Origin: Escherichia phage vB_EcoP_PhAPEC5
Sequence record: NC_024786.1
Length of the DNA stretch: 64,000 nt
Direction: 5' to 3' (one strand)
Part shown: positions 753-31,900 of the stretch, in pieces
Position numbering within the stretch: the first letter of the stretch is position 1
Layout: each line of letters starts with the position of its first letter
Made by a program: the position numbers and the translations under genes
Notes under the pieces: model-generated
The model's input: only the letters and a program-made list of their open reading frames with translations
Told to the model about the DNA's origin: nothing
Database searches by the model: none

Positions 753-782
753 GACCTCCCTATTGAAGGGAGGTCTTTTTTT
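753..782 (+). terminator. Rho-independent terminator
   Basis: Stem GACCTCCC / GGGAGGTC with loop TATTGAA followed by a T7 run. Confidence 0.75.
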
Positions 783-1505: not shown

Positions 1506-1539
1506 TTAGTAATTCCATTAACTTTAGGAGAGTAAGTAA

Positions 1540-2592
1540 ATGGCGAGCATTGACTCCTTGACTGTATGTAATACACGCCAAGCCCGTAATTTTATTATCC
1601 GTGCCCTGCAAGCAGGTAACGTACCGTTCCTGACTTCATCACCAGGCATGGGTAAATCTGCAATTATCCGTTCTGTTGCAGAAGAATTTGGCATGAAGCT
1701 GATTGACCATCGTCTGTCTACTTCTGCCCCGGAAGACCTGTCTGGTCTACCATTCCGTAATGGTGACCGTGCAGAATTTATCCCATTCGCTGACTTATTC
1801 CCTATCGAGGGAGATGAAGTACCGGAAGGTTATAATGGCTGGCTCCTGTTCCTTGATGAGTTCAACTCAGCTAAGAAAGAAGTAGTAGCTGCAGCATACA
1901 AACTGATTTTAGACCGCATGACTGGACAGAAGAAACTTCACCCTAATGTGATGATTATCTGTGCCGGTAACAAAGCTACTGACCGTGCCATCGTTAACCC
2001 ACTGGGTACTGCAATGCAGTCCCGTGTTGTCCACTTCGAAATGGAACTTAACTTCGACATCTTTGTTGAAGACGTGATGATTCCACAAGAATGGGATGAG
2101 CGTCTGGTTGCATTCTTACATGCTAACCCTGGCTATCTGCACGACTTCGATCCTGCCCATAAGAACAAAACGTTCTGTTGTCCTCGTACCTGGGACTTTG
2201 TTAACAAAGACCTCAAGAACCAACCAGAAGGTGCTCTGCCTGATGAAGATTCCCTATACTACAGTGGTTTTGTTACACCAGGTAAGGCCGTAGAGTTTGT
2301 TCAGTTCACTCAGGTATACAATCGTATGATTACGATTGAGAAGGTAGTCAAAGACCCTTTAGGCTGTGCACTACCGGAAGATAATAACCTGTGTTGGGCT
2401 ACCGTTAACCATCTGGCTAACAAGACCACTGAAGATAACTTCGCTGATGTTCTTCAGTACATTGAACGCTTTAAAACGTTCACCCATAAGATTCTGTACT
2501 TCCGTACAGTAGGCAAAGCATTACCAGAAATTCAGGCTACCCCCGAATGGCGTAAGGCTGCTGCCAATATCTCTCGTTACATTCACGGGTAA
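1540..2592 (+). CDS. MoxR-like AAA+ ATPase
   Basis: Walker A SSPGMGKSAI, Walker B LLFLDEFNSA, sensor/arginine region; strong AGGAG RBS; immediately followed by a VWA-domain partner. Confidence 0.8.
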   Translation: MASIDSLTVCNTRQARNFIIRALQAGNVPFLTSSPGMGKSAIIRSVAEEFGMKLIDHRLSTSAPEDLSGLPFRNGDRAEFIPFADLFPIEGDEVPEGYNGWLLFLDEFNSAKKEVVAAAYKLILDRMTGQKKLHPNVMIICAGNKATDRAIVNPLGTAMQSRVVHFEMELNFDIFVEDVMIPQEWDERLVAFLHANPGYLHDFDPAHKNKTFCCPRTWDFVNKDLKNQPEGALPDEDSLYYSGFVTPGKAVEFVQFTQVYNRMITIEKVVKDPLGCALPEDNNLCWATVNHLANKTTEDNFADVLQYIERFKTFTHKILYFRTVGKALPEIQATPEWRKAAANISRYIHG

Positions 2593-2599
2593 TCACATC

Positions 2600-3775
2600 A
2601 TGAACCAGATACCTCAGCACACACTTAGCGATGAACAACTCATGCGTGAGTATGACCGTATACAAGCGCAGGCATTTTTAGGCCGCAGTGCAGCGTTTTT
2701 TGGTTCATTGCTGTGTAGTCTTAAGTTCTCATGGAAACGTGAAGACTGTCCCACTGCATGTACTGACGGGATAGAACTCCATTTCAACCCAGACTTCTTT
2801 ATCTGGATGTGCCCTGATGCGAGAGAAACAGTGCTAATGCACGAACTCTGGCATGTGGCATATCTACATGGCATCCGCTGTGGAAGCCGTGACCCGGAAA
2901 TCTGGAACCAGGCATGTGACCACTTCATTAACCTTCAGTTAGAAGAAGACGGTTACAAGTTCACTGGTATCGACAAAGGCATTTGCAAAGACCCTCAATA
3001 TAAAGGATGGGTTGAAGAAGACATCTACGATGACCTGATGAAGAACCCTCAGAAAAGGCAGAAGCCGTCAGGGGGTGCTGGAGCAGGTCTTGCTGGCGAC
3101 ATGAAAGCTCCCTCTTCGGGGCAGTCCCAGGGTGCTGTTGTCAACAACGTAGTACGTGCAATGCAAAGCCAGAAGATGGCTGGTGGAATAATGCCAGGTA
3201 AAGGTGCTGGTCGTATGGAAGAGGTTATTACCCAATTCCTTAAACCAGTGGTTCCATGGCAGGAAGTCCTTATGGACTTCTTCACTGACATTGATGACTC
3301 ACGCTATACGTGGGCCAGACCTAACCGTCGTTTCACTGACATCTATCTACCGTCATTGGAAGATGATGAAGGACGTTTACGACACCTAGCTTACTTTGAG
3401 GATGTATCTGGTTCTATTAGTAGTTCTGACTCTCTGCGTTTTAACTCAGAGGTTGCCTACGTTAAAAGCCAGTTCAATCCTAAGAAGATGACCCTTATTA
3501 CCTTCGACGATATTATCCAAGAAGAAATAGACATCACTGAAGAAGATACCTTTGAAGAGATTAAGATTACTGGTCGTGGTGGTACAAACCTTGAACCAGT
3601 GCGTGAATGGATTATTGAGAATAAGCCAACCGCTGCAATCATATTCTCCGATATGTATGTTCGTCCTATGGAAGAGTTACCATTTGATATCCCTATCATC
3701 TGGTGTGTTCTGAATAATCCTAATGCTACCGTACCTTTTGGGGAGGTAGTTCATATCCCTAAAGGAATGAAATGA
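2600..3775 (+). CDS. VWA-domain protein with N-terminal HExxH metallopeptidase-like domain (partner of the MoxR ATPase)
   Basis: HELWH motif in N-terminal half; MIDAS-type DxSGS motif (FEDVSGSISSSD) in C-terminal half; gene order matches MoxR-VWA pairs. Confidence 0.55.
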   Translation: MNQIPQHTLSDEQLMREYDRIQAQAFLGRSAAFFGSLLCSLKFSWKREDCPTACTDGIELHFNPDFFIWMCPDARETVLMHELWHVAYLHGIRCGSRDPEIWNQACDHFINLQLEEDGYKFTGIDKGICKDPQYKGWVEEDIYDDLMKNPQKRQKPSGGAGAGLAGDMKAPSSGQSQGAVVNNVVRAMQSQKMAGGIMPGKGAGRMEEVITQFLKPVVPWQEVLMDFFTDIDDSRYTWARPNRRFTDIYLPSLEDDEGRLRHLAYFEDVSGSISSSDSLRFNSEVAYVKSQFNPKKMTLITFDDIIQEEIDITEEDTFEEIKITGRGGTNLEPVREWIIENKPTAAIIFSDMYVRPMEELPFDIPIIWCVLNNPNATVPFGEVVHIPKGMK

Positions 3776-4224
3776 TTATTAACCGCAGTCGTTTATTAGA
3801 GCTGGCTCCTATAAAGAACATGGTGGACTCTAAGCAAACCAGTAATGGTTTCTCTTGGGGTCTTACAGAATGCGGATACGATATTCGTATTAAGCAGGAT
3901 GTGACCATGTTCTTGGGGCGACGATTCGTACTAGCGTCAGCCATAGAAGAGTTCGACGTCCCACCAAACCTTATGGGCCGTGTACTTAATAAGAGTACAT
4001 GGGCCAGAAAGGGGATTGATGCAAGCATGACAACCAATATCGAACCGGGGTGGAAAGGTTTCCTTACCCTTGAGCTTCGTTATTCGGGTATTTTGCCTGT
4101 TAAAATAAAAGCTGGTACTGGCATAGCTCAGGTTATCTTCGAAGAGATAGCAGAGCATTGTCGTTATGAAGGTAAGTACCAGTGTCAACCAAACAAACCA
4201 GTAGCTGCTAGACCTTCAAAATAA
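3772..4224 (+). CDS. dCTP deaminase/dUTPase-fold protein (putative)
   Basis: ATGA overlap with upstream gene; motif GFSWGLTECGYDIRI resembles the dUTPase/dCTP-deaminase Gly-rich/DLR region. Confidence 0.45.
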   Translation: MIINRSRLLELAPIKNMVDSKQTSNGFSWGLTECGYDIRIKQDVTMFLGRRFVLASAIEEFDVPPNLMGRVLNKSTWARKGIDASMTTNIEPGWKGFLTLELRYSGILPVKIKAGTGIAQVIFEEIAEHCRYEGKYQCQPNKPVAARPSK

Positions 4225-4254
4225 AAGGCTATCCAGCTTAACCAAGGAAATAAC

Positions 4255-4458
4255 ATGTCAGTATTCACTACTAAAGCAAATGGTCAGAAAGTAACTGTTA
4301 TAGCTGCAAACGTAGCATTCGTAACAGATAATGGTGGTCAAGCATGTATCACTTTTAACAATGGTGATGTACTTCAAACTGAAGTAGGTTACGACTCTGT
4401 TCGTAAGAACGTAGCTAAGGCACTGTCTGGGGCTAAGCCTAAGGCAGAAGCCGAGTAA
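4255..4458 (+). CDS. hypothetical protein
   Basis: ATG with AAGGA RBS; 67-aa ORF. Confidence 0.35.
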   Translation: MSVFTTKANGQKVTVIAANVAFVTDNGGQACITFNNGDVLQTEVGYDSVRKNVAKALSGAKPKAEAE

Positions 4459-4531
4459 GTAGCTGCCTAAATAGCCCAGCATAGTTGGGCTATTTGTGAA
4501 GAAACTAACTCAACCCCACATAGGAACCATC

Positions 4532-4792
4532 ATGGAATCTTTAGCAGCAATCCTCATTCTGTTATTTGCACTAGCTGTATACCTTATCCCTACTATTATT
4601 GCTTTTGCACGAGGCCATGCCTCTAAGTGGGGCATTGGTGTACTCAATATCGTATTAGGCTGGTCTTTAGTCTTCTGGGTAGTAGCACTGATTTGGGCAC
4701 TGTCTAACAAAGGGCAGTCTCAGACTACAATCGTTAACGTTGGTAGTGGGAACCAGTACAACGTGTCTCAAACGAGTCAGTCTGATAAGTAA
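4532..4792 (+). CDS. Imm-like superinfection immunity membrane protein (putative)
   Basis: Two TM segments with motif PTIIAFARGHASKWGIGVLNIVLGWSLVFWVVALIWAL, resembling the T4 Imm family; tracked ORF starts at GTG 4496, ATG 4532 with AGGA RBS preferred. Confidence 0.5.
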   Translation: MESLAAILILLFALAVYLIPTIIAFARGHASKWGIGVLNIVLGWSLVFWVVALIWALSNKGQSQTTIVNVGSGNQYNVSQTSQSDK

Positions 4793-4867
4793 CTAACCTA
4801 AGCATCATTGCATAGTGGTGCTTGTGGAAGTTACTTCCAGCTCATTGCTTATCCATCTCCTAATCCA

Positions 4868-4895
4868 AGCCCACCTAACCCGTGGGCTTTTTTAA
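4868..4895 (+). terminator. Rho-independent terminator
   Basis: Stem AGCCCAC / GTGGGCT, loop CTAACCC, followed by TTTTTTAATT; lies inside the tracked ORF 4808-5296, arguing for the downstream ATG 4910 as true start. Confidence 0.65.
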
Positions 4896-4909
4896 TTACA
4901 GGTACTCTT

Positions 4910-5296
4910 ATGTCAAACAGACAAAATGGTAAGTCTATCTTATATGGACTGGACTTAAGTAAACTGGAACAAACTGCAATGCTTACTTTAGGTAAAACTA
5001 TACATGACCAAGTAGAAGAGAATGGAATTGGTCCTGATGTTTATGCAGCAATGCAAGCTGCTATTCAGAAAGGATGGACTAGTAGATCATTTAATGTTTT
5101 CCCATACATCCCTCCTGAGCCTCATCTGAAATCTAAGGTAGACAGAATTATAGATAAGTTCTGGCTTAGCCCGTGTTATAACGACATGCATCTTTACCTG
5201 GCTCAAATACAAAAGAATACCCGTACTGAGGATGTGTTTAAAGGTAAGAGCACTACCCATCATTACCCTTGGTATAGAAGAGGTAGTAAATACTAA
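4910..5296 (+). CDS. hypothetical protein
   Basis: ATG downstream of terminator; tracked ORF begins with TTG at 4808. Confidence 0.4.
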   Translation: MSNRQNGKSILYGLDLSKLEQTAMLTLGKTIHDQVEENGIGPDVYAAMQAAIQKGWTSRSFNVFPYIPPEPHLKSKVDRIIDKFWLSPCYNDMHLYLAQIQKNTRTEDVFKGKSTTHHYPWYRRGSKY

Positions 5297-5739
5297 TGCG
5301 TATCCCATTTCTAAGAAAAAGAGAACGAAATCCTGTTCTTTATAATAAAGGCATAGAGGATGAGTATGAACTCAACCGTAAAGCCCGTTCCTACGCAACA
5401 AAATTGTTTATGGGGACTAATACCCCTGATAGATTACTGGACTTTGTTTTCGAACAAGTCTTTATCATATACAGCTTAGCTATGTCTGCTGGTTCACAAG
5501 AAGTAAGTGATAAGGCAAGAGATGCTCTCTGTATGCTCCGTAGGGAGTATGAAGCCCTCATGTATGTAGACTTATACTCCTTTAAAAAAGAAACCGCTGT
5601 AGCGTGTTCTGTGGCTCTTACTGAAGGTATAGCAGTATTACAGGAACTACCTCGTAGTGAGTTTAAACTGGTATATGTTCAGGCCAAGAGGATTACAGAA
5701 AGCCGTAGTGGTATTACCAACTATCTAAGGTCATTCTAA
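5296..5739 (+). CDS. hypothetical protein
   Basis: ATG start; 147-aa ORF, 1-nt overlap with next gene. Confidence 0.4.
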   Translation: MRIPFLRKRERNPVLYNKGIEDEYELNRKARSYATKLFMGTNTPDRLLDFVFEQVFIIYSLAMSAGSQEVSDKARDALCMLRREYEALMYVDLYSFKKETAVACSVALTEGIAVLQELPRSEFKLVYVQAKRITESRSGITNYLRSF

Positions 5740-6683
5740 TGATTAAGGCAACTGTCATTGCAGATTCCGTTCATCATGCAACTGGTACTCGTATTACCAC
5801 CTTTGAATTGGTTTACCCCCGATTCATTCATAGTGAGTTTATGACCCACCGTGTATTCAACCGCAATGCCTCAAGTAGTCGTGCTATCCCTACCTCTAAG
5901 TTCATTGAACAGGTTCGTAATGAACCAGTGATGCCAAGTCACTGGGGCAAGAACCAGAAAGGTATGCAAGCAGATGAAGAACTCACTCCTATGGAGATTG
6001 AGGATGCTAAGTTTATCTGGGATAACGCTGCATCTTCTGCTGCTGTATATGCTGAACAACTACGTCGTGGACAAGTACATAAGCAGATTGTTAACCGTAT
6101 TCTGGAACCATTCACGCATATCCGTGTGGTGGTAACTTCAACTAGCTGGGCTAACTTCTATGGCTTACGTGACCATGAAGACGCCCAACCAGAGATTCGT
6201 GAACTGGCTCAAGCAATGCGTAAGGCTCATAATGAAAGTGTTCCAACAAAACTCATGCAAGGGCATTGGCATATGCCGTATATCACTGATAATGATCTTT
6301 ATGTTGCTTACGATTTCTGCAAACATCAGCGAATTACTCGTGATGAACCAAGTAGTGAAGAAGTGTATGGCTTACTTCTTAAAGTAAGTGCTGCTCGCTG
6401 TGCTCGTGCTTCTTACAACAATTTCGAAGGTCGTCCTTCTACTATTGAAGAAGACTTAGGATTGTTTGCTAAGTTAGTTGAGAACCAACCTATTCATGCA
6501 TCCCCTACTGAACACCAGGCAACTCCTATGCTGTTCGGTGATAAGTTCATTAACAACCAAAACCCATTAACCTGGGAACAGGGTGTTACTTCAATGGATC
6601 GTGAAGGTAAGCTGTATTCAGGCAACTTACTGGATTTCATCCAATTCCGTAAACTAATCCCTGGTGAAACCATTACAGAATAA
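5739..6683 (+). CDS. ThyX-like flavin-dependent thymidylate synthase (putative)
   Basis: Motif SEFMTHRVFNRNASSSRAIP resembles the ThyX RHRx7S signature (first Arg replaced by Thr). Confidence 0.4.
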   Translation: MIKATVIADSVHHATGTRITTFELVYPRFIHSEFMTHRVFNRNASSSRAIPTSKFIEQVRNEPVMPSHWGKNQKGMQADEELTPMEIEDAKFIWDNAASSAAVYAEQLRRGQVHKQIVNRILEPFTHIRVVVTSTSWANFYGLRDHEDAQPEIRELAQAMRKAHNESVPTKLMQGHWHMPYITDNDLYVAYDFCKHQRITRDEPSSEEVYGLLLKVSAARCARASYNNFEGRPSTIEEDLGLFAKLVENQPIHASPTEHQATPMLFGDKFINNQNPLTWEQGVTSMDREGKLYSGNLLDFIQFRKLIPGETITE

Positions 6684-10443: not shown

Positions 10444-12486
10444 ATGAAAATCGAACTGATTTCTATCATCGCACTGGCAGTTGACAGTCGAAACCTCACA
10501 CTGTGGAAGCCTGATGGCTCCACGGTTGTATATCCTCAGAGCGACCCACGGGTTGCTCGCATTGTATCTGAAGCACAGACCAAAGGTCTTGGCACTACCC
10601 AGGACCAAATAGAAGTAAACATTGCACCAGAAGTAGAACTACGTACTGAATATCTGGAAGCAGAGAAGAACACCAACGGATTCGTCCGTTTCTTCAAGGT
10701 AGCTAAAGCTAAACTTAAAGAGTTCTTCGAAGATAGCACAGGTGTTTCACCAGCCCGTATCGTCTCAGATATTAAGCTGGGTAATCCTACTAAGACGCTT
10801 GTGTCTAAAGCTATGGATACCTTCCTGGCTGTACAGGCTAATGAACCAGAAGTAACGGTAGCAGACGGATGTTACGACAAACGTGACAATCTGATGTGGG
10901 TTACTGGCTGGGACAGGGACCATAACCATCCTGCACTGGTTCGTTTTATTAACGACGTACTGTGGATGGATTCCGGTCTTACTGACATTGTGCTTAGACA
11001 AGAATGGCCTATTGCAATTCGTGCAGTATCTGATGATGAAATGGGTGAGTTTGCTAAACAAGCCCAGAACATCAAAGGTGTACATGTTGTATTTACCAAT
11101 CGTGAAGAAACACCACTGCCTTATGTGGAAGTAGCTAAAACTACGAACCAGGATAAGCTGGCTGCTGCTTCAGAGAAGCTAGCTGCATTAGGTGCTATCA
11201 GTACCGATGATGCTAACTTCCACACTGATGTGAAGGAAGATGAAGTGGTTGTTGCTGTTACTAACAATGGGGTTATCCCTGGAGTTGAGAACCTACATCG
11301 TCACCTGCGTCAGTCTGCCAAGCTGAAAGACTACAAGGGCTTTACTAAATTCCTTGAACGTCTGGCTCCGGTTATTAAAGACCGTCTGCACTCAGTGGAA
11401 GACCTGATGAAGTTCATGGAAACTGCTGAACTGCCTATTGCTGATGATGGCTCTATCCTGTTCTTGAAACGCCTTAAGTATAAAGGCACGGAAGATGGTA
11501 AACGTGTATTCGTTGACTGTCACTCAGGCAACATCCGTCAGTGGGTAGGCTGTAAAGTACAGGTACGAGAAGACCTGGTAGACCCTGACCGACGTCAGGA
11601 CTGCTCTAACGGTCTGCATGTGGCATCCATGAGCTACATTCGTCACTTCGGTGGTAACGTAACTATCCTTGGTAAAGTAGCACCAGAAGATGTTTTTGCT
11701 GTTCCTGAGTACAACACTAATAAGATGCGTGTAGCTGCGTATCACATTATTGCTGAACTTCCAGAAGAGGAACGTTGCAACGTTAACAGTGGTATCTACC
11801 TGTCTAAGACAGAAGTAGGTAAGAAGTTGCTTAATGATGCCATCGTTGGGAACCATAGTTCACCTACTACACTTATTATGGTTGGTGGTCACTATGGTAC
11901 TAACCTCAAATACACTAATCTCTCATCTGGTTCTGTAGAACAATTCCGTACAGTTGCTAACAAAGAAGCACTGAATATGGAAGAGTCACTTAATGAGGCT
12001 TTAGCTGCTGAACCAGTGAAAGCTACTGACCTTAAACCTATTGTTAATAAGGCTCCTACTGTGAAAGAACAAATTCAGGAACTGGTTAAAGAGTTCCTTA
12101 ATGCTACTACTCCAGAAGATAAATTAGCTGCTGCTGATTTACTTGTGGAAATGCGAGGTAAGGCTCGTAAGCCTTGGGCTGCTTTAGGTGTTGGTTCTGA
12201 TGTGGTGGCGAAAATTGCTGATGTACGTACAACCTACACAGCTAAACCTATCGGTAAACCAAAACCAGTGAAGCAAGCTAAGGTTACTAAAGCTGCTCCT
12301 AAACCCATTAATGGAACACACGCTGATAATCTGCGTAGCATCCTGAATGATACGTCGTACTCCGACTATCAGAAAGGCCATGCTCTGCAAGACTATAAGC
12401 GTCATGCCAAGAAGTCATTCGCTGCAATGGGTCTGACTGAAGAAGAAGCTAAGTTAGCTACCAAGCTGACTAAAGCTGCTAAGTAA
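10444..12486 (+). CDS. rIIB: rIIB-like protein (putative)
   Basis: 680-aa ORF directly downstream of the rIIA-like gene; assignment by position and size, no diagnostic motif recognised. Confidence 0.45.
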   Translation: MKIELISIIALAVDSRNLTLWKPDGSTVVYPQSDPRVARIVSEAQTKGLGTTQDQIEVNIAPEVELRTEYLEAEKNTNGFVRFFKVAKAKLKEFFEDSTGVSPARIVSDIKLGNPTKTLVSKAMDTFLAVQANEPEVTVADGCYDKRDNLMWVTGWDRDHNHPALVRFINDVLWMDSGLTDIVLRQEWPIAIRAVSDDEMGEFAKQAQNIKGVHVVFTNREETPLPYVEVAKTTNQDKLAAASEKLAALGAISTDDANFHTDVKEDEVVVAVTNNGVIPGVENLHRHLRQSAKLKDYKGFTKFLERLAPVIKDRLHSVEDLMKFMETAELPIADDGSILFLKRLKYKGTEDGKRVFVDCHSGNIRQWVGCKVQVREDLVDPDRRQDCSNGLHVASMSYIRHFGGNVTILGKVAPEDVFAVPEYNTNKMRVAAYHIIAELPEEERCNVNSGIYLSKTEVGKKLLNDAIVGNHSSPTTLIMVGGHYGTNLKYTNLSSGSVEQFRTVANKEALNMEESLNEALAAEPVKATDLKPIVNKAPTVKEQIQELVKEFLNATTPEDKLAAADLLVEMRGKARKPWAALGVGSDVVAKIADVRTTYTAKPIGKPKPVKQAKVTKAAPKPINGTHADNLRSILNDTSYSDYQKGHALQDYKRHAKKSFAAMGLTEEEAKLATKLTKAAK

Positions 12487-15226: not shown

Positions 15227-16897
15227 ATGCGTTACATCACCTCTCAGGATACTGGCAAGTATCCTATTGCTATCCTCGGTCATCAAATCCGAAGGGAGGA
15301 GATGATTAAAACCTACCTGCTGCCTTATGACCTAAGCATGGAAGATTTCATCTTCCTTGAGCTTCATTCTGCCCCAGGTAAGAAGAAGACTCCTGCAAGG
15401 GAGATTAAGGAGTTCATACAGCAGGAACTGCAACAAGTACTGGATGACGCAGAGACTCAGTACATTATCTGTACCGATTCTGACTACTTCAAAATACTGA
15501 CTAAAGAAGCTAAAGCAGAGGCTAACCTCGGCTATGTTTGTGATTCAGTATGGGGTAAGCAGAAGGTTATCTATACACCTAGCTACAGACAGGTCTTTTA
15601 TGATCCACCTGTAGTGAAAGCTAAGATTGCTCAGGGTATGGATGCATTACTTAACCACATTCGTGGGCAGTATGCTGAACCAGGACAGGGAATCATTGAG
15701 TTTGAAGCCTATCCGGATACACCAGAAAAGATTAAAGCCTGGCTAGACCAGTTGCTTGAGATGAATAAGCCTCTGGCTATAGACATCGAATCATTCGGTT
15801 TAAAGCACTATAACGCTGGTATAGGGACGATTACGTTCTGTTGGAGTAAGACACAAGGCATAGCCTTTAATGTGGACTACGAGCCGATTAAGGGGGCTAC
15901 TGAAGCACCCTATGGGCGTATTAACAGGAACGATGTTGTTCGTAACCTGTTACGTGAATTCTTCATTAAGTACACTCAACGGCAGATGTATCACAACATT
16001 AGCTATGACGTGTACATACTTATCTATCAGTTATTCATGGATAACCTGATTGATACGGAAGGCTTACTAAATGGCATGGAGATCATGCTACGTAATTGGG
16101 ACTGTACTAAGTTAATCACCTACCTGGCTACTAACAGTTGTGCCGGTAATCATCTTAGTCTGAAAGAACAGGCTCAGGAATATGCTGGTAACTATGCTCA
16201 GGATGATATTAAAGACATTCGTCTTATACCTAATGAGCAACTGTTACGCTACAACCTCATTGATGGTTTGTGTACGTGGTACACCTACGAGAAGCACTGG
16301 GATACTCTCATTGCTGATGACCAATTAGATGTTTACAACAACATCTTTAAACCAGCCTGCGAAGACATTATTCAGATGCAGTTAACCGGTATGCCCATGA
16401 ATATGGAAACCGTTAACCAAGTGGCTGAAGAGATGGAAACTGACAGGAACCAGGCTTTGAAAACTATTCGTGAGTCTAAGCTCATGAAGAATTTCACCCT
16501 GATGCTTCGTCAGGAATGGGTAGATGATAAGAATGCTAAGCTTAAGAAGAAGCAGGTAACATTGGCTGATTGTGACATTGAGTTTAATCCTAACTCCGGT
16601 CCTCAATTACAGAAACTGTTATTTGATTATATTGGCTTACCGGTTCTTGGTCTTACTAAGAGCAAGCAACCTGCTACTGACGGTGACACTATTAAAGCAC
16701 TGCGTACACATACGCAGAGTGAAGATGTTAAGGAACTGCTCAATGCACTTATCGACTATAAACTCGTGGATAAGATTATCACTAGTTTTATACCAGCTTT
16801 CAGGAATGCCCAACCGGGGCCGGATGGCTGGCACTATCTGTTCGGAAACCTTAATCTGGGAGGCACAGTCTCCGGTAGGCTATCGGCTTCAGAGCCT
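15227..16897 (+). CDS. DNA polymerase, family A, exon 1 (3'-5' exonuclease and N-terminal polymerase part)
   Basis: Exonuclease-like motifs (IDIESFGL, YNLIDGLCTWY); ORF ends with GRLSASEP, the first half of the Pol I GRLSSxxPNLQNIP motif; tracked ORF continues 7 codons into intron sequence (KINWAI stop). Confidence 0.75.
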
Positions 16898-17603
16898 AAA
16901 ATAAATTGGGCTATTTAAACCATGTGAATTCAGGGGAAACCCAGACCGGGCAATCCTGAGCCAAATCAACCATACCTGCCTTAGGAGGCACATGATGGAT
17001 ATCAAGAATCTGTACGAGAATACTGACCTATCTCAAGCAGAAATATCAAAGCGTTTGGGTATTAATTACAAAAAAGTCTCTAAATATATTATGGAGAACT
17101 ACAGTAAAGAATACCGCCAAAGCAGAAATGCAAAGTCTTACCGACGCTCCAAGCTGGGGAAAAATAACCCCATGCTCGGTAAATTCGGCAAAGACCATCA
17201 CAACTACAAAGGTTTAGTATCCGATAGTAAGGGCTACTTAATGGTACTTAAACCCGATTGGTATACTGCACGCAAAGGTAGCAAACATGTTTTTGCTCAC
17301 CATGTAGTGGTATGTGAGGCACTTAATATCAGTGAAATACCTAAGGGCTGGTGTGTGCACCATTGTGATGAAAATCCATACAACAACGACTTTGATAATC
17401 TTGTATTGCTAAGTGTTCCTGACCACGCTCGGTTACACTCAGCATTGAAAGGTGCAACGACTATCTCGAAAGAGAGTACACTCATGTGGGTGGAAGCGCA
17501 TGGCACGCCTTACTATCTGGCGTGATGATATAGTCTGCTCTGCATAGGAATATGCAGCAGTCGAAAGACGGGCATGGATTAACGACCCATGCTGAACAAC
17601 AGG
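16898..17603 (+). mobile_element. Group I self-splicing intron (predicted) carrying an HNH endonuclease ORF
   Basis: 5' exon ends in T pairing as U-G with intron GGGCT (P1); last intron base is G; P-like AATTCAGGGGAAA, Q-like AATCCTGAGCC, R-like GCAACGACTAT and S-like GATATAGTC elements; joining exons restores GRLSASEP-NLQTIP. Confidence 0.65.
16992..17525 (+). CDS. HNH homing endonuclease (intron-encoded)
   Basis: HNH core CVHHCDENPYNNDFDNLVLLSVPDHARLH; AGGAGG RBS at 16983-16988; lies entirely between the two DNA polymerase segments. Confidence 0.85.
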   Translation: MMDIKNLYENTDLSQAEISKRLGINYKKVSKYIMENYSKEYRQSRNAKSYRRSKLGKNNPMLGKFGKDHHNYKGLVSDSKGYLMVLKPDWYTARKGSKHVFAHHVVVCEALNISEIPKGWCVHHCDENPYNNDFDNLVLLSVPDHARLHSALKGATTISKESTLMWVEAHGTPYYLA

Positions 17604-27258: not shown

Positions 27259-27452
27259 CCTGAAGTCGCCAGGTACTTATGGCAAACGGGTAGTAACGAA
27301 CTAGTCATTCGTCAAACGCCCACCCAATTATGAGTCAGCAAGAACGCCTTCACTTAAACTTAAACAAAAAAGCTTAACGCAATAATTATGTAGGGGTATG
27401 TAAGGATTGCGAAGAAGGAGCCAGTTAGAGCCTGGCATGACTCGCCCATTAT

Positions 27453-27526
27453 GTCCGCTTAGCTTAGACTGGGAAAGCAACCGACTAATAATCGGAAGGT
27501 CACTGGTTCAAATCCAGTAGTGGACA
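27453..27526 (+). tRNA. tRNA candidate (74 nt; anticodon loop CTAATAA, apparent anticodon AAT)
   Basis: Manual cloverleaf: acceptor GTCCGCT/AGTGGAC (7 bp, one G-T), U8, D-stem GCTT/AAGC with GG in D-loop, 4-bp anticodon stem CCGA/TCGG, 5-nt variable loop, T-arm ACTGG-TTCAAAT-CCAGT, discriminator A. Confidence 0.45.
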
Positions 27527-27756
27527 CCCATTCAGCAGTAACATAGTCCTGATTGCATAGCACTCTAAAGACAACACTGGTAAGACAGTCCAGTGGCTGC
27601 TAATGTATTGTTATTCCCCTCGACGGGAATTTCGCTAGTGAAGGTAACACTTAAAAATCCAAACCCACGTCTTACTACTATCGGGCTATCAACCCACGGT
27701 CGCTTAACCCTATAGTGGTAGTAGTTTGACGGCCTGCCTCGTTGACTGCGTTAAAG

Positions 27757-27985: not shown

Positions 27986-28349
27986 AGAATCAATCGAAGC
28001 TAAGATTAAGAGCGTCTACTATTTCAACGGTGCTGATGCAGTAAAGTCTGCCTTCGTTAACCCTTCTGCACTTCCGGCAGACGATTTGGCTAACCTGGGC
28101 CTGGTAACATACTGTATTATCATCCTGGAAAATGGCTTCAAAGTTGAAGGTGTATCTGCCTGTGTTGACCCAACCATCTATGATGAACAAAAAGGCCGTC
28201 AGTATGCATATGAAAATGCATTCGATAAGATTTGGGAAATGGAGGGTTACCTCCTACGTCAGGCATTACATGAGAAAGAGGAGACTGCTAAGGCTCTGGC
28301 TTCCTTTGCAGAAAACAACACCTGTGATGGTGGTGGTTGCACCATTTAA
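27969..28349 (+). CDS. hypothetical protein (possibly N4 gp49-family)
   Basis: ATG 27969 with GAGG RBS; sits two genes upstream of the virion RNAP as the N4 gp49-family gene does; weak similarity to the N-terminal half of the next ORF. Confidence 0.35.
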   Translation: MATVSKESIEAKIKSVYYFNGADAVKSAFVNPSALPADDLANLGLVTYCIIILENGFKVEGVSACVDPTIYDEQKGRQYAYENAFDKIWEMEGYLLRQALHEKEETAKALASFAENNTCDGGGCTI

Positions 28350-28467
28350 CAAATAAGAGTAAGGTGGTTTTTACCGAAAGGTACTGAACTACCCGACATG
28401 TGGTAAGGCTCATGAAGCCAAAACAAAACAAGCCCTCTTAGTGAGGGCTTTATCATTTGAGGTAGTT

Positions 28468-28956
28468 ATGTCAGAAGAAATTAAAGTTCACTTCACCAAC
28501 TACATTGGAACCAAGTGTGTAAATGGATTCCGGATGAACAAGGAAACATATTGCAAACTTCGTGGCTGGGATGTGCCTGCTAATGAAGACCCATTAGAAG
28601 TAGGTTACTTAGTAGAATACCCGGATTCTAAACCTAACCATGAGCAATTCCGTGGTTATATTAGCTGGTCACCAAGGGCTGCATTTGAAGCTGCATATTG
28701 TGATGTAGATAAGGGTTGTACTTTTGGTCACGCCGTAGAGCTTCTCAAAGCAGGCTTCAAACTAGCCCGTAAAGGTTGGAACGGTAAGGGAATGTATATC
28801 ACCTTAGTAACCGGTGAAAATTGGGCTATAGATAAACATGAGAATACTGTTTGTGAGAAACGGGATTGGCTGGGTATTAAGACCGTTGATAACCAATTTA
28901 TGCCATGGGTTCCATCCCAATCGGATGTATTAGCTGAAGACTGGGTATTAGTCTAG
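28468..28956 (+). CDS. DUF2829/Tad2-like domain protein (candidate anti-Thoeris sponge) fused to an N-terminal domain of unknown function
   Basis: C-terminal half carries KGWNGKGMYITLV ... PWVPSQSDVLAEDWVLV, matching the remembered DUF2829 pattern; ATG 28468 with GAGG RBS; tracked ORF starts at GTG 28441. Confidence 0.45.
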   Translation: MSEEIKVHFTNYIGTKCVNGFRMNKETYCKLRGWDVPANEDPLEVGYLVEYPDSKPNHEQFRGYISWSPRAAFEAAYCDVDKGCTFGHAVELLKAGFKLARKGWNGKGMYITLVTGENWAIDKHENTVCEKRDWLGIKTVDNQFMPWVPSQSDVLAEDWVLV

Positions 28957-28966
28957 TAAGAATTAA

Positions 28967-28992
28967 AGCCCCTCATTAGAGGGGCTTTTTTA
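28967..28992. terminator. Bidirectional rho-independent terminator at the strand switch
   Basis: Stem AGCCCCTC / GAGGGGCT with loop ATTA, A-tract upstream and T-tract downstream; between convergent + and - strand genes. Confidence 0.65.
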
Positions 28993-28994
28993 TT

Positions 28995-31900
28995 TTAGTT
29001 TACTAAGTTCATCCAAGGATTCAGGTTATGGGCACGAAGACCCTGACCAAAGCCCCATGAGTAATCCAGACTACCCTTAGCAGCAATGCTAAAGATGTTA
29101 TCCTGAATAGGTAAACCAACGTTACCAAACATGGTAGGAGTTGGAGCCAGCATAGCCATTGCTGCATGTACTGGGTTATTACGAATCATGGAAACTGCAA
29201 CTTTTGCAGAACGAATCTTAAAGTTGTAGAACCACATCAGACCAACACTTTCCATATACCCACGGAAGCGACCAGGTAAACGGTCATAGTTAACGAACTC
29301 TTCCGTCACACGTCCTAGTGCTTCTTCACGAGTCTTACCCTTACGCTGAGTCAATTCATCATAGATGATTGCTTTAGCGATAAAGTCAGAGTACTCAACC
29401 GTCTTCTGTATACCCTGGAACAAAGCAGTATCTTTAGTGATAAGTGCATAGCGACCGGCAGTACGTACTGACTTAGGTAACTTATCAGCCAGCTTATCCA
29501 TGTATTCATGAAGTTTACCTTCAGTAATCAGGATGTCATCACGACCGATACCAGCATCTGCAATTGAAGAGAACTCACCAGCTTCTAACAGAGGCCAGAT
29601 ACTCATACGCTTATGGCTATCAGTAATGGACTGAATCTCAGCCTTAAGTTTACGAATCTGGTTCGGGTTAGTAGCTGCACGTAATTCTGCTTCTGCATCT
29701 ACCTGACGCAGACGAGATTTAAGGTACTGGTTAATCTCAGCAGTTTTCTGTGGGATGCTCTTAGCAATGTTCTTAACTGGTACACCACGAGCAACCATCT
29801 GGTAAAGGTTAGCCAAGAAGTTAACAGCAGGTACGACTACTGACTTAACTACAATCAGAGTCTTAGCTTCTTTAACTAAGTTCTGAACCAGGTTCTCACC
29901 ACCCATTGTGTACTTATAAGCACGGTTGCCAAATACACCCAGCATAGCTTTCTTGAAGGTATCCAGTGTTTCCGGGGACCAACGAGAATTACCAGACCAA
30001 GCATCACCTACAGAAGCTGCACGATAACCAAGTGCATCATTAAGCATGTCACGACGCACCCACAATTCACCCTCACCGAACAAACTCTCTGCTTTCTGAC
30101 GTGTTTCACTGTTCATCAGCTTAAGAGCATCAGCAGTTACTGGGTCCAGTTTTGAACCAAGAAGGTTAACGTACTGGGACTTATTAGAGGCAGACATCTT
30201 AATGTCATTCTCATACATGCTATGCAGGTTCTCAATCAGCATATCGTTGAAACGCTGAGCCTTAGCTTCTTCCACCTGACGACCACGCCATATACCAATT
30301 GCACGGGCAAGATGGTTCTCACCTTCAATATGCTTCAGCATGTTAGGGTCAATGGATTGCTCATAGGCAACCACATTACCTTTATCATCATATACAGGCA
30401 GGAGTGGTTCATTACCACGTTCACCACGAGCCAGTGCTTTAGTGATACGGTCTACGGAAGGCTTGTCAGTGATACGACCAGCTACCATGGAACCCATCGT
30501 AAAGCCTGTGCCGAGGTCTACGCCACCAGCAGTATCACGAACGTTCTGTAGGATACCCTGTGAGAATGGAGCCTGTGCCTGTACCGGTGCGAAGTAGTAG
30601 CTACGTGCCGGACCACGGTTAGCAGAGCTACCCTGATAAGTACCCAGACGTACATAAGATTTCTCAATCAAATCAGCAAACTGATTATCTTCAGCAACAA
30701 TCAGATTAACACCCTGTTTGTTCTCACTAGGGATATGCCCTTTGTACTGGTTCAGGGTTGCACGCATATCAGATTTGGCTTTAGCCATTTCATCTTTACG
30801 TTGACCAACTAGATAAGAGGTAGCAAAGTCCATCCCATCAACTTCTGTCTGAGCCAGTGAAGATAACATCTCACGGTCGGACTTGTTCATTGCTTCCAGT
30901 GCATACAAAGTAATCAGCTTATCCAGTTGAGCTACATCTACAGTAGAGCGAGCAGCCTGACGTTCACCCAGCATACGAGAGATTGCAGTAGCATTACGCA
31001 GCAGGTTATTACCGACTGTACCGTTAATCATGTACTGAGCCAGTTGCTTAGATTTACGGTTAATCAGGGGCCAGTTACGACCAGCTTGCTTCTGCAAATC
31101 TGCTTCCAGCTTGTTCACTTCACGGTCAACAATCTTCTGGTCAGATAGCAGGTCACGGATTTCAGCCAGAGACATAGTGTCACGCAGAACAGCTAAGTCA
31201 GTTTTACCCATACCAGTGTGCATTGCTTTCCACTCATCATTAGTCAGCTTACGGCTGAACTTAGATGCGATAGTGGTAGGCAAATGTTCACGGAATTGTT
31301 GACGGTCAGCTTGTACCTGTGCACGAACTGCTTTAATTAAATCATATACAGAAGCATTGCTCTTAGTACGACCGGTTAAGTCATTAACCAGGTCATGGAA
31401 AGGTTGCCATACCTTACCCTGGTTCATTGCAGCCATAACACCTTCAGCTACGATTGCACCATTCTTCTCTGTAGCAATAGCAGCTACCAGTTGTGCAGCA
31501 TGAGCAGCACCTTTGACCAATGGGTTCTTAGTATTAGCTGCAACTTCACGAGCACTCTCTAAAGCACGAGTAGACAATGCATCAATAGAATCCACCAGAT
31601 ACTGGTTAGCACGGTCAATAGCATTACCACTAGGTGTGGCAACGGAATCATAGAATGACTGTGCATTGAGACTAGTCTGCATGATTGTCTGTGCCAGTGC
31701 ATCCATACCTTCCTGTACGTTAGTAGCTTTAGTGTCACCTGCTACACGAGCATTCAGGCTAGCCATTGCAGCAGTACCAATGTTAGTCAGCATTGCATCA
31801 ACGGTATTACCGGATTGCTTATCTGCTTTCATAACTGGAATGTCAACCAGTACATTACGTACATCTTCACTTACCATTGCCAGAGCTACAAAGGTAGGCA

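What the first reader, a model, noticed from the sequence alone, without database searches (positions are those of the whole stretch)
1540..3775. MoxR-type AAA+ ATPase paired with a VWA protein carrying an HExxH motif
The ATPase has Walker A/B motifs and the partner has both a metallopeptidase-like HELWH and a MIDAS-type DVSGS motif. MoxR-VWA pairs act as chaperone or metal-insertion modules in cells; the phage role is unclear.
Basis: partly seen in the sequence, partly recalled or inferred. Interest (0 to 1): 0.4.

Follow-up and report, generated by a model that had tools for sequence, protein, structure and literature searches.

The report
N4 gp24/gp25 ATPase and peptidase-VWA pair
Two adjacent genes of this N4-like coliphage encode a ring-type ATPase motor and a partner that joins a zinc-protease-like domain to a metal-dependent protein-binding domain; the pair is real and conserved in nearly all N4-like phages, was already catalogued, and its job in infection is still untested.

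Summary
ORF A (1540-2592, 350 aa) is an AAA+ ATPase of the helix-2-insert (MoxR/midasin/dynein) clade. ORF B (2600-3775, 391 aa) is Pfam DUF2201_N (zincin-like, HELWH) plus DUF2201 (VWA with a complete MIDAS: DVSGS, T329, D351). All catalytic residues are invariant from N4-like phages to jumbo phages and plasmids.

The window is a Gamaleyavirus (G7C/PhAPEC7-like, 97% identical). The genes are the orthologues of N4 gp24/gp25, near-universal in Schitoviridae and listed as "function unknown". The same architecture was described in jumbo phages by Iyer et al. 2021, so nothing here is new in kind.

Points I add:
- Homologous ATPase plus DUF2201 modules sit on conjugative and other plasmids.
- An invariant W-x-RPNRR-x4-Y-x-P motif lies in the predicted disordered linker.
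- Inteins sit in the invariant A|CD helix of two homologues.
- The pair is repeatedly linked to dC-deaminase and thymidylate-synthase genes.
- The jumbo-phage ATPase homologue was detected in purified virions.

Most likely mechanism, inferred: an ATP-driven hexamer engages the VWA-zincin partner, which captures a client through MIDAS and cleaves or remodels it. The client is unknown; the candidates are virion assembly, host or conflict targets, and nucleotide-metabolism enzymes. Interest is modest.

The parts
753..775 (+). Terminator-like hairpin plus T-run after the Hoc-like decoration gene; upstream limit of the transcription unit that holds the pair
   Evidence: 9-bp stem, 6 GC pairs, T7. 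PhAPEC7 has an annotated terminator at the equivalent place.
1526..1530 (+). AGGAG Shine-Dalgarno-like sequence 9 nt before the ORF A start codon
   Evidence: Sequence read.
1540..2592 (+). ORF A, 350 aa: AAA+ ATPase of the MoxR/midasin/dynein (helix-2-insert) clade, with an extra C-terminal helical domain (about aa 237-350). Orthologue of N4 gp24.
   Evidence: Pfam AAA 28.7 bits; PHROG 1297, 6e-133; Midasin; AF2 pLDDT 85, pTM 0.80; NorQ, CbbQ, dynein; PhAPEC7 gp24 'similar to N4 gp24'.
1636..1659 (+). Walker A / P-loop, S33-S-P-G-M-G-K-S40
   Evidence: P35, G38, K39 and S40 invariant in 36 homologues. G36, G38 and K39 invariant in the distant set.
1705..1752 (+). DHRLSTSAPEDLSGLP: conserved motif in the helix-2 insert, the presumed pore or partner-binding element
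   Evidence: D56, H57, R58, S62, P64, D66, G69 and P71 invariant. P64, G69 and P71 invariant in distant homologues. Lies in the insert between beta2 and beta3 of the model, with low pLDDT at 66-72. The Midasin alignment covers it.
1843..1860 (+). Walker B, LLFLDE
   Evidence: D106 and E107 invariant. D106 invariant in the distant set.
1963..1971 (+). Sensor-1, A142-G-N144
   Evidence: Invariant; at the end of beta4 of the model.
2017..2025 (+). Q160-S-R162, putative arginine finger
   Evidence: Invariant; R162 invariant.
2182..2193 (+). P215-R216-T-W218, putative sensor-2 arginine at the start of a lid helix
   Evidence: P215, R216 and W218 invariant; helix 215-225 in the model.
2600..3775 (+). 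ORF B, 391 aa: zincin-like metallopeptidase domain (about aa 1-235), linker, and a compact VWA domain (about aa 260-391). Orthologue of N4 gp25. The start codon lies 7 nt after the ORF A stop.
2840..2854 (+). HELWH (H81, E82, H85): zincin active-site motif in helix 72-87
   Evidence: Invariant; helix assignment.
2867..2869 (+). H90: candidate third metal ligand (HExxHxxxxH)
   Evidence: At least 90% conserved; invariant in the distant set.
2906..2932 (+). N103-x-A105-C106-D107-xxx-N111 in the helix after the HExxH helix. D107 is a candidate ligand or catalytic residue. This is the site where homologues carry inteins.
   Evidence: N103, A105, D107 and N111 invariant. Intein-like insertions lie between A105 and C106 in P0251 and P0244.
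3311..3352 (+). W238-A-R-P-N-R-R-F-T-D-I-Y-L-P251: invariant motif inside the predicted disordered linker between the peptidase and VWA domains
   Evidence: W238, R243, R244, Y249 and P251 invariant, and R240, P241 and L250 at least 90% conserved. P241, R243, R244 and P251 invariant in the distant set. pLDDT below 50 for 232-242 and 244-252.
3401..3415 (+). MIDAS motif, D268-V-S270-G-S272
   Evidence: Invariant; directly follows beta1 (263-268) of the VWA model.
3584..3586 (+). MIDAS threonine T329 (GGT)
   Evidence: G328 and T329 invariant.
3650..3652 (+). MIDAS aspartate D351 (FSD), at the end of beta4
   Evidence: Invariant; strand 345-350 in the model.
3772..4224 (+). dCTP deaminase gene. 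Its ATG overlaps the ORF B stop codon (ATGA), which suggests translational coupling.
   Evidence: (PF22769, 9.8e-18).
4867..4889 (+). Terminator-like hairpin; downstream limit of the transcription unit (small ORFs, ATPase, zincin-VWA, dCTP deaminase, two small ORFs)
   Evidence: PhAPEC7 has an annotated terminator at the equivalent place.

Best explanation
The two genes encode a two-component, ATP-driven protein-processing or remodelling machine. It is the Schitoviridae core pair gp24/gp25.

Shown:
- ORF A has every catalytic residue of an AAA+ ATPase. Its fold and closest relatives place it in the MoxR/midasin/dynein clade.
- ORF B joins a zincin-like domain with an intact HExxH to a VWA domain with a complete MIDAS (DxSxS-T-D).
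- The genes are co-oriented and 7 nt apart, in one unit bounded by terminator-like hairpins.
- Co-linear homologues of both occur together in N4-like phages, jumbo phages and plasmids.

Inferred, by analogy with NorQ/NorD, CbbQ/CbbO and Rea1:
- ORF A forms a hexamer.
- Its helix-2-insert loops (invariant P64, D66, G69, P71) grip an element of ORF B. My candidate is the invariant, basic, predicted-disordered W-x-RPNRR-x4-Y-x-P linker just before the VWA domain.
- The MIDAS ion binds an acidic side chain of a client protein.
- ATP hydrolysis pulls or twists the partner, so that the client, or ORF B's own linker, is exposed to the zincin site and cut or remodelled.

The client is not identified. 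My ranking:
1. Phage assembly or maturation substrates (virion, ejection proteins, giant vRNAP), about 0.3.
2. Host or rival-element proteins, about 0.25.
3. The neighbouring dTMP-synthesis enzymes, about 0.15.
4. Something else.
For: - Domains and motifs.
- Structure of the ATPase: AF2 pTM 0.80. Foldseek gives NorQ (9qh4, TMt 0.61), cso-CbbQ (5c3c, TMt 0.65), AfCbbQ2, dynein and Rea1.
- Zincin topology: helix, then three strands, then the HExxH helix, then a second helix carrying invariant D107. This fits the published definition of the zincin core (PMC5512222).
- Module conservation: gp25-like in 693 phage records (519 near full length) and the ATPase in 827 (553), against 475 records with an N4-like capsid protein.
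- Same gene order in jumbo phages.
- On plasmids, ATPase-hypothetical-VWA or ATPase-VWA arrangements. The plasmid ATPase aligns over its full length (27% identity, E 3e-34).
- Inteins at the A|CD site of two homologues mark that helix as functionally central.
- Mechanistic template: the finger-in-pore contact between a VWA element and the H2 insert, client binding by MIDAS, and linker stretching in NorQD (PMC13036017).
- Assembly reading: the precedent of ATV p618/p892 and the proposal for jumbo phages (PMC7824862). The phAPEC6 MoxR ATPase gp265c was detected in purified virions (6 peptides, 19% coverage). No scaffolding protein has been identified in N4 (PMC11445570).
Against: - No experiment on any member of this subfamily was found. 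Complex formation, hexamerisation, ATPase activity and peptidase activity are all untested.
- The VWA domain is short (about 130 aa) and shows no obvious NorD-type finger. The linker-in-pore idea is my inference from invariance and charge only.
- Fold searches returned only VWA matches for ORF B, so the zincin fold rests on Pfam, the motifs and the secondary-structure order.
- AAA_5 is below the Pfam cutoff and AAA_3 and NCBIfam give nothing.

Against the assembly reading:
- In N4-like genomes the pair lies in the early/middle arm, translationally coupled to dCTP deaminase. It is not with the late structural genes on the other strand.
- Homologues exist on plasmids without virion genes.
- The phAPEC6 virion list also contains thymidylate synthase, so co-purification or contamination is possible. 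The gp25-like partner gp264c was not detected.
Confidence: 0.5

Rival explanations
1. Host-directed or inter-element conflict effector. The pair is a takeover, counter-defence or exclusion device carried by mobile elements. The MIDAS domain recognises a bacterial protein, or one from a competing element, and the zincin destroys or processes it under control of the ATPase.
For: - The same module is on conjugative and non-mobilizable plasmids in Betaproteobacteria, Alphaproteobacteria and Cyanobacteria.
- On pSYSA it sits among toxin-antitoxin and defence-type genes.
- MoxR-vWA systems with peptidase effectors are described as conflict systems (PMC7159879; PMC12839542).
- Zincin peptidases are the commonest domain of phage and plasmid 'polyvalent' early effectors (PMC5512222).
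- The operon also holds a superinfection-immunity-like membrane protein, and rIIA/B lie nearby.
Against: - The pair is near-universal and slowly evolving in Schitoviridae, with about 50% identity across genera and many invariant residues. Typical anti-defence genes are sporadic and fast-evolving.
- No PADLOC family matches.
- No third component (VMAP, iSTAND, FtsH, beta-propeller) is present in the phage. The plasmid 'middle' gene has no homologue in the window.
Confidence: 0.25
2. Classical MoxR-VWA chaperone for an enzyme. The pair activates, assembles or metallates a phage enzyme or enzyme complex, most plausibly the adjacent pyrimidine (dUMP to dTMP) pathway. The HExxH site would act as a metal-handling or regulatory site rather than a protease.
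For: - Characterised MoxR/VWA pairs act on a client encoded next to them: NorQD with cNOR, and CbbQO with Rubisco (PMC13036017).
- Here ORF B overlaps the start of dCTP deaminase, and ThyX follows 2 kb downstream.
- The deaminase slot is kept but filled by a non-orthologous, Zn-dependent-type dCMP deaminase (PF00383) in a Mesorhizobium N4-like element and in roseophages (PMC2784036).
- In unrelated jumbo phages the pair lies 1-2.5 kb from ThyA-type thymidylate synthases.
- phAPEC6 thymidylate synthase and the MoxR ATPase were both found in the particle fraction.
Against: - Plasmid homologues have no such neighbours, nor does the rV5-like phage.
- dCTP deaminase and ThyX are not known to need metal insertion (own knowledge).
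- An invariant HExxH with its general-base Glu points to hydrolysis.
- The linkage may only reflect a shared early/middle gene block.
Confidence: 0.15
3. The motifs are chance or relics. The two ORFs are unrelated neighbours, or the peptidase or MIDAS sites are dead.
For: - Pfam's AAA match is weak (28.7 bits) and AAA_5 is below its cutoff.
- No structural match was obtained for the peptidase domain.
Against: - All catalytic residues are invariant down to 23% identity.
- The two genes are adjacent in independent lineages.
- The family is very large, with 21,499 cluster representatives.
- Inteins occur in the active-site helix.
Confidence: 0.02

Closest known systems
Bacteriophage N4 gp24 (AAA ATPase) and gp25 (vWFA protein), conserved in N4-like phages (Schitoviridae)
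   Same: - Orthologues with the same order and neighbours: RNAP1/2, then gp24, gp25, dCTP deaminase, ThyX, rIIA/B.
- The PhAPEC7 and G7C records annotate them as 'similar to N4 gp24' and 'similar to N4 gp25'.
- The window is 96.8% identical in DNA to PhAPEC7 over the pair.
- Function is listed as 'Unknown' (PMC2784036, PMC6992544).
   Different: Nothing of substance. Here the genes are uninterrupted. G7C has an HNH gene between them, and U1G has the ATPase gene split by an HNH 'phage intron'.
MoxR AAA+ plus (metallopeptidase-vWA) pair of group 2.2 jumbo phages (Iyer et al. 2021; phAPEC6 gp265c/gp264c)
   Same: - Same two-gene architecture and order.
- HExxH, MIDAS and AAA+ residues are all conserved.
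- phAPEC6 gp264c is annotated 'N4 gp25-like'.
   Different: - Only 24-29% identity, and the proteins are larger (about 440 and 460-475 aa) with insertions.
- They lie next to virion-protein genes, and the ATPase was detected in virions.
- A virion assembly and processing role was proposed there, without experiment (PMC7824862).
NorQ/NorD and CbbQ/CbbO (MoxR-class AAA+ with a VWA partner)
   Same: - These give the most compact structural matches to the ATPase.
- They provide the mechanistic template: hexamer, H2-insert contact and client binding by MIDAS.
   Different: - The partner's N-terminal domain is a zincin-like peptidase, not a NorD/CbbO-type domain.
- The VWA is much shorter, with no evident finger.
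- The ATPase has an extra C-terminal helical domain of about 110 aa.
- No respiratory or carboxylase client is present.
Midasin/Rea1
   Same: - The only solved proteins found by sequence for the ATPase (E 6e-5).
   Different: - Six AAA modules and the MIDAS domain lie in one giant eukaryotic polypeptide.
- No peptidase.
Acidianus two-tailed virus p618 (MoxR) and p892 (VWA)
   Same: A virus-encoded MoxR-VWA pair, reported to be needed for tail development. It is the precedent cited for a morphogenetic role (PMC7159879; PMC7824862).
   Different: - An archaeal virus.
- No peptidase domain.
- I did not compare the sequences.
MoxR-vWA ternary conflict systems (VMAP, iSTAND, FtsH and beta-propeller types; Kaur et al. 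2020)
   Same: A MoxR ATPase plus a vWA protein that can carry a peptidase effector.
   Different: - Those systems need a third signature component, and their MoxR has a special N-terminal region. Neither is present here.
- Those systems are cellular and enriched in multicellular bacteria. This pair is a core gene set of lytic phages.
Plasmid cassettes: Synechocystis pSYSA 'MoxR family ATPase' plus 'VWA-like' (a jumbo-phage record names homologues 'Sll7029' and 'Sll7028'), and Burkholderia, Cupriavidus and Rhodovastum ATPase-hypothetical-VWA-like cassettes
   Same: Homologous ATPase (27% identity over the full length) and DUF2201_N plus DUF2201 partner with the same invariant residues.
   Different: - The proteobacterial plasmids insert a conserved gene of about 300 aa between the two. 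It has no homologue in the window.
- The context is T4SS, partition or toxin-antitoxin genes.
CLCA proteins (zincin plus VWA in one chain)
   Same: - The CLCA1 VWA is the top Foldseek hit for ORF B's VWA.
- CLCA also has an N-terminal HExxH metalloprotease ahead of a VWA and cleaves itself (own knowledge, not tested here).
   Different: - Secreted eukaryotic proteins with no AAA+ partner.
- The resemblance may be convergent.

Membership tests
AAA+ ATPase superfamily | Walker A, Walker B, sensor-1, arginine finger and sensor-2 on an alpha/beta core plus a helical lid | tested here: met
   All residues are present and invariant. Pfam AAA scores 28.7 bits, above its 21.2 cutoff. AF2 gives pTM 0.80, and 481 PDB chains match at E<=1e-3, all AAA+ among the 50 best listed.
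MoxR-like / helix-2-insert clade (clade 7: MoxR, CbbQ/NorQ, chelatases, midasin, dynein) | Beta-hairpin insert in helix 2 and a pre-sensor-1 hairpin | tested here: met
   The model has an irregular insert of about 40 aa with short strands between beta2 (52-58) and beta3 (100-106). It also has short strands at 127-133 before beta4. Confidence in the insert is low (pLDDT below 50 at 66-72). The best sequence hits are Midasin modules. The most compact structural hits are NorQ and CbbQ, but generic AAA+ proteins score similar E-values.
MoxR-like / helix-2-insert clade | Passes a curated family model (Pfam AAA_5 or AAA_3; NCBIfam MoxR) | tested here: not met
   AAA_5 scores 17.6 bits, below its cutoff of 22. 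There is no AAA_3 hit and no NCBIfam hit. The plasmid homologue scores 21.3 on AAA_5, also below 22.
MoxR-like / helix-2-insert clade | Works with a VWA-domain partner encoded nearby | tested here: met
   The partner gene starts 7 nt downstream. Adjacency recurs in jumbo phages and plasmids. Physical interaction was not tested.
VWA domain with MIDAS | Rossmann-like alpha/beta fold | tested here: met
VWA domain with MIDAS | Five metal-coordinating residues, DxSxS...T...D | tested here: met
   D268, S270, S272, T329 and D351 are invariant. The motif definition is taken from PMC13036017. Metal binding itself was not tested.
Zincin-like metallopeptidase | HExxH on a helix, plus a third ligand on the following helix | tested here: met
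   H81, E82 and H85 are invariant within helix 72-87. Invariant H90 and D107 are the candidate third ligands, with D107 on helix 99-116. Pfam DUF2201_N 'putative metallopeptidase' scores 4.6e-54. The plasmid homologue shows a weak Peptidase_M48 match at the motif.
Zincin-like metallopeptidase | [quoted passage not shown] | tested here: inconclusive
Zincin-like metallopeptidase | Peptidase activity | not testable with these tools
   Needs biochemistry.
N4 gp24/gp25 orthologous pair (Schitoviridae core genes) | Sequence orthology and conserved synteny in an N4-like genome | tested here: met
   - 92-97% DNA identity to Gamaleyavirus genomes.
- Record notes read 'similar to N4 gp24' and 'similar to N4 gp25'.
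- The window also holds a 3577-aa ORF (28995-39728, minus strand) of virion-RNA-polymerase size, not domain-checked, plus an N4-like capsid protein, rIIA/B and ThyX.
MoxR-vWA ternary conflict systems (Kaur et al. 2020) | A third signature component (VMAP, inactive STAND, FtsH or beta-propeller) | tested here: not met
   The neighbours are small ORFs, dCTP deaminase and ThyX. PADLOC gives no family match.
ATP-dependent metal chelatase or insertase pairs (CobS/CobT, BchI/BchD, NorQ/NorD) | A metalloenzyme or tetrapyrrole client encoded with the pair, and a partner of CobT/BchD/NorD type | tested here: not met
   There is only a marginal PHROG 249 'porphyrin biosynthesis' match (E 9e-4). The partner's N-terminal domain is DUF2201_N. 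No such client gene lies in the operon.

The most novel reading that the evidence does not exclude
gp24/gp25 may define a distinct class of AAA+ protease system used by mobile elements. The unfoldase ring (gp24) and the protease (gp25) would be separate polypeptides. The MIDAS site would select the client, and the invariant basic linker (W-x-RPNRR-x4-Y-x-P) would be the handle gripped by the helix-2-insert pore. In Schitoviridae this could be the missing morphogenetic chaperone-protease, since no scaffold has been identified and I know of no prohead protease (own knowledge). It might handle the giant vRNAP, the ejection proteins or the prohead. On plasmids the same engine would process transfer or establishment proteins.
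Probability: 0.2. Interest if true: 0.6.

Novelty: already known. Interest (0 to 1): 0.3.

Why it matters
gp24/gp25 are among the few genes shared by essentially all N4-like phages that still have no assigned function. Relatives are abundant: 21,499 clusters at 50% identity match the profile, across phages of several families and plasmids.

If the predicted ATP-driven, MIDAS-guided peptidase is real, finding its client could have several consequences:
- It could fill a gap in Schitoviridae biology, for example in capsid or vRNAP assembly or in host takeover.
- It would add a protease-coupled variant to the MoxR-VWA chaperone family, whose mechanism has only recently been seen structurally (NorQD).

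For genome annotation, many records and PHROG 1314 label this protein 'HNH endonuclease', which the domain evidence does not support.

Tried and rejected
- NCBIfam: no hit for either protein.
- PADLOC: only a sub-threshold DolB match for the ATPase (E 0.0044) and nothing for ORF B, so the pair is not a catalogued defence system.
- PDB sequence searches for ORF B, as a single sequence and as a profile: nothing significant.
- The genome-contig scan used patterns specific to the phage clade. It returned only N4-like loci, not distant cellular homologues.
- Literature: 'DUF2201' gave three irrelevant papers and 'COG3864' none.
- The CRISPRi-ART paper and a phage Tn-mutagenesis paper contain no data on N4-like gp24/gp25.
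- The Aravind 'polyvalent proteins' paper does not mention vWA or MoxR.
- The conserved middle gene of the plasmid cassettes has no detectable homologue in the window, and none among the neighbouring proteins tested from the jumbo (L009, L010) and rV5-like (L011) loci.
- The Rhodococcus pBD2 'AAA family ATPase' near its VWA-like gene is a helicase-type AAA_30 protein, not a MoxR partner. I do not count pBD2 as a pair.
- The PHROG label 'HNH endonuclease' for ORF B is rejected. Pfam finds no HNH domain. The label may stem from HNH homing-endonuclease genes inserted next to or within these genes in relatives; that origin is my inference.
- A clamp-loader reading (PHROG 168, E 5e-6) is rejected as generic AAA+ similarity.


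Full report
WHAT IS THERE

The window is an N4-like podophage of the genus Gamaleyavirus. Region 1540-3775 is 92-97% identical to 54 of 57 matching phage records, with PhAPEC7 best at 96.8%. The window also carries the other N4-like features:
- a Hoc-like decoration gene (31-702);
- dCTP deaminase, ThyX and rIIA, with the 680-aa ORF at 10444-12486 in the rIIB position of PhAPEC7;
- a 3577-aa ORF of virion-RNA-polymerase size on the minus strand, not domain-checked, and an N4-type capsid protein.

Two co-oriented ORFs occupy exactly the stated coordinates: ORF A 1540-2592 (350 aa) and ORF B 2600-3775 (391 aa). ORF A is preceded by AGGAG. ORF B starts 7 nt after the ORF A stop. The ORF B stop overlaps the ATG of dCTP deaminase as ATGA. 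Terminator-like hairpins at 753-775 and 4867-4889 bracket the unit, matching terminators annotated in PhAPEC7.

ORF A

Pfam gives AAA at 28.7 bits (cutoff 21.2). AAA_5 is below its cutoff (17.6 versus 22). PHROG 1297 'ATPase' scores 6e-133, and NCBIfam gives nothing.

In 36 homologues of 50-91% identity the following are invariant:
- Walker A (P35, G38, K39, S40);
- Walker B (D106, E107);
- sensor-1 N144;
- R162 (QSR);
- R216 (PRTW).

Most of these are still invariant at 21-26% identity, in jumbo-phage, rV5-like and plasmid homologues. A conserved DHRLSTSAPEDLSGLP segment (56-71) lies in an insert between beta2 and beta3.

The AF2 model is confident (pLDDT 85, pTM 0.80). It shows that insert, short strands before beta4, a lid, and an additional helical domain at about 237-350. 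The only solved proteins found by sequence are Midasin/Rea1 AAA modules (E 6e-5). Foldseek's most compact matches are NorQ (TMt 0.61), cso-CbbQ (0.65) and AfCbbQ2 (0.58), next to many dynein modules. Generic AAA+ proteins score similar E-values.

I therefore place ORF A in the helix-2-insert (MoxR/midasin/dynein) clade. I do not place it in the MoxR-proper family.

ORF B

Pfam gives DUF2201_N 'putative metallopeptidase' (4.6e-54, aa 17-253) and DUF2201 'VWA-like' (5.3e-34, aa 263-386). In 38 homologues these residues are invariant:
- H81, E82, H85;
- D107;
- W238, R243, R244, Y249, P251;
- D268, S270, G271, S272;
- T329 and D351.

Apart from W238 and Y249, these persist in the distant set, where H90, N103, A105, N111, E140, Y143 and P241 are also invariant.

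WHAT IT IS

GenBank and RefSeq notes for PhAPEC7 and G7C call these genes 'similar to N4 gp24' and 'similar to N4 gp25'. Papers on N4-like phages list both as conserved with 'Unknown' function (PMC2784036, PMC6992544).

tblastn finds gp25-like genes in 693 phage records (519 near full length) and the ATPase in 827 (553). An N4-type capsid protein is found in 475 records. The pair is therefore near-universal in Schitoviridae.

It also occurs in other lineages:
- In Asteriusvirus and Alcyoneusvirus jumbo phages it has the same order and adjacency.
- In rV5-like phages the two genes lie 4 kb apart.

Iyer et al. 2021 described the jumbo-phage version as a MoxR-vWA pair with an N-terminal metallopeptidase on the vWA protein. 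They proposed a role in virion assembly with peptidolytic processing (PMC7824862).

A profile of the phage proteins matches 21,499 cluster representatives at E<=1e-3 among 1.84 billion. It is a very large family.

BEYOND PHAGES

Ninety-eight plasmid records hold a homologue of ORF B. The contexts I examined were:
- In Burkholderia, Cupriavidus and Rhodovastum plasmids the arrangement is ATPase, a conserved hypothetical of about 300 aa, then the VWA-like gene. In one case it lies directly upstream of T4SS genes.
- The Burkholderia ATPase aligns with ORF A over its whole length (27% identity, E 3e-34).
- The middle genes of the Burkholderia and Rhodovastum cassettes are homologous to each other but have no relative in the window.
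- On Synechocystis pSYSA a 'MoxR family ATPase' overlaps a 'VWA-like' gene amid toxin-antitoxin genes.

The module therefore belongs to mobile elements in general, not to virions as such.

HOW IT PROBABLY WORKS

Nothing in this subfamily has been tested, so I reason from anatomy and from characterised MoxR-VWA pairs. In NorQD, an element of the VWA domain sits in the pore formed by the helix-2 inserts of the hexamer. MIDAS is thought to bind acidic residues of the client, and ATP hydrolysis twists and stretches a linker of the partner. The authors expect this mode to be general (PMC13036017).

By analogy I propose four steps:
1. ORF A forms a hexamer.
2. Its conserved acidic and proline-rich insert motif engages ORF B.
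3. ORF B binds a client through MIDAS.
4. The zincin domain cuts or remodels the client, or ORF B's own linker.

My candidate for the pore-engaged element is the invariant basic W-x-RPNRR-x4-Y-x-P motif. It lies in a predicted disordered linker just before the VWA domain. This is inference from invariance, disorder and charge only.

The functional weight of the helix after HExxH is underlined by two homologues with intein-like insertions at the same point. The insertions lie between A105 and C106 of the invariant N-x-A-C-D, and each begins with Cys and ends with His-Asn followed by Cys.

WHICH CLIENT

(a) Assembly or maturation.
- For: the ATV precedent and the jumbo-phage proposal.
- For: phAPEC6 gp265c, annotated as a MoxR ATPase and next to the N4 gp25-like gp264c, was detected in purified virions with 6 peptides.
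- For: no scaffolding protein has been identified in N4, and I know of no prohead protease in N4-like phages (own knowledge).
- Against: in N4-like genomes the pair sits in the early/middle arm coupled to dCTP deaminase, not with the late genes.
- Against: plasmids carry it too.
- Against: the phAPEC6 list also includes thymidylate synthase and lacks gp264c.

(b) Host or conflict target.
- For: the distribution on mobile elements, the defence-type neighbours on pSYSA, and known MoxR-vWA-peptidase conflict systems.
- Against: core status and slow evolution, no PADLOC match, and no third component.

(c) Nucleotide-metabolism enzymes.
- For: the dC-deaminase slot after gp25 is kept but filled by non-orthologous enzymes. 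It is dCTP deaminase here and dCMP deaminase in a Mesorhizobium element and in roseophages.
- For: thymidylate synthase lies within about 2.5 kb in both N4-like phages (ThyX) and jumbo phages (ThyA).
- Against: plasmid and rV5-like contexts lack these genes, and the invariant catalytic Glu suggests a hydrolase.

I rate the molecular model at about 0.5. I rate the clients at (a) about 0.3, (b) about 0.25 and (c) about 0.15.

VERDICT

The thing itself is already known: it is N4 gp24/gp25, and the architecture was described in 2021. It remains functionally uncharacterised. Interest is modest at 0.3. It is a well-defined, testable unknown in a model phage family, not a surprise.

Noticed in passing
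window 15227-18512: The DNA polymerase is split into two ORFs: 15227-16918 (563 aa) and 17589-18512 (307 aa), which match consecutive parts of the PHROG 17 profile. An HNH endonuclease ORF (16992-17525) lies between them. I did not test whether this is an intron or a truly split gene.
   Followed up: partly
window 3772-4224: The dCTP deaminase gene is a swapped allele. Identity to PhAPEC7 drops from about 97% to about 55-60% right at the gene start and returns to near 100% about 40 nt before its stop. The gene is also 57 nt shorter. The recombination boundaries coincide with the gene ends.
   Followed up: partly
L015 (phage G7C) and L016 (phage U1G), region equivalent to window 1540-3775: Relatives carry homing-endonuclease insertions here. 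G7C has an HNH gene (gp24.1) between gp24 and gp25. U1G has the ATPase gene interrupted after about 107 aa by an HNH 'phage intron', and its gp25 is annotated as two ORFs. The window has the uninterrupted form.
   Followed up: partly
window 2600-3775; PHROG 1314 and many RefSeq records: ORF B's family is widely labelled 'HNH endonuclease' (PHROG 1314 and many records). Pfam finds only DUF2201_N and DUF2201, with no HNH domain. This looks like a propagated annotation error.
   Followed up: yes
P0251 and P0244 (homologues of ORF B); equivalent to window about 2912-2917: Two homologues carry intein-like insertions of about 310 and about 146 aa at the same site. They lie between A105 and C106 of the invariant N-x-A-C-D helix, with Cys at the start, His-Asn at the end and Cys at +1.
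   Followed up: partly
L004 (Mesorhizobium yinganensis, 727-kb contig), L003 (Roseococcus MAG, 297-kb contig), L018 (Mesorhizobium MAG, 153-kb contig): Blocks of N4-like genes (gp24-like, gp25-like, dC deaminase, ThyX, helicase, PolA, and RNAP1/2 in L003) lie inside large bacterial contigs. In L018 ordinary bacterial genes (LysR, NmrA, glycosyltransferases) abut the block directly. These may be integrated N4-like elements or assembly chimeras. N4-like phages are regarded as strictly lytic (own knowledge).
   Followed up: partly
L017 (phAPEC6), L010 (WPEC5), L009 (phiKp_21); window 3772-6683: The ATPase/zincin-VWA pair is repeatedly linked to thymidylate synthase. ThyX is about 2 kb downstream in the window, and ThyA-type genes are 1-2.5 kb downstream in two jumbo-phage genera. 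In phAPEC6 both the MoxR ATPase and thymidylate synthase were found in the virion fraction.
   Followed up: partly
window 27452-27530: A single tRNA-Ile gene with anticodon AAT lies at the end of the rightward gene arm.
   Followed up: no
window about 28000-30000: GC skew changes sign near 30 kb. This coincides with the switch from plus-strand early/middle genes to minus-strand late genes, starting with the 3577-aa ORF at 28995-39728.
   Followed up: no
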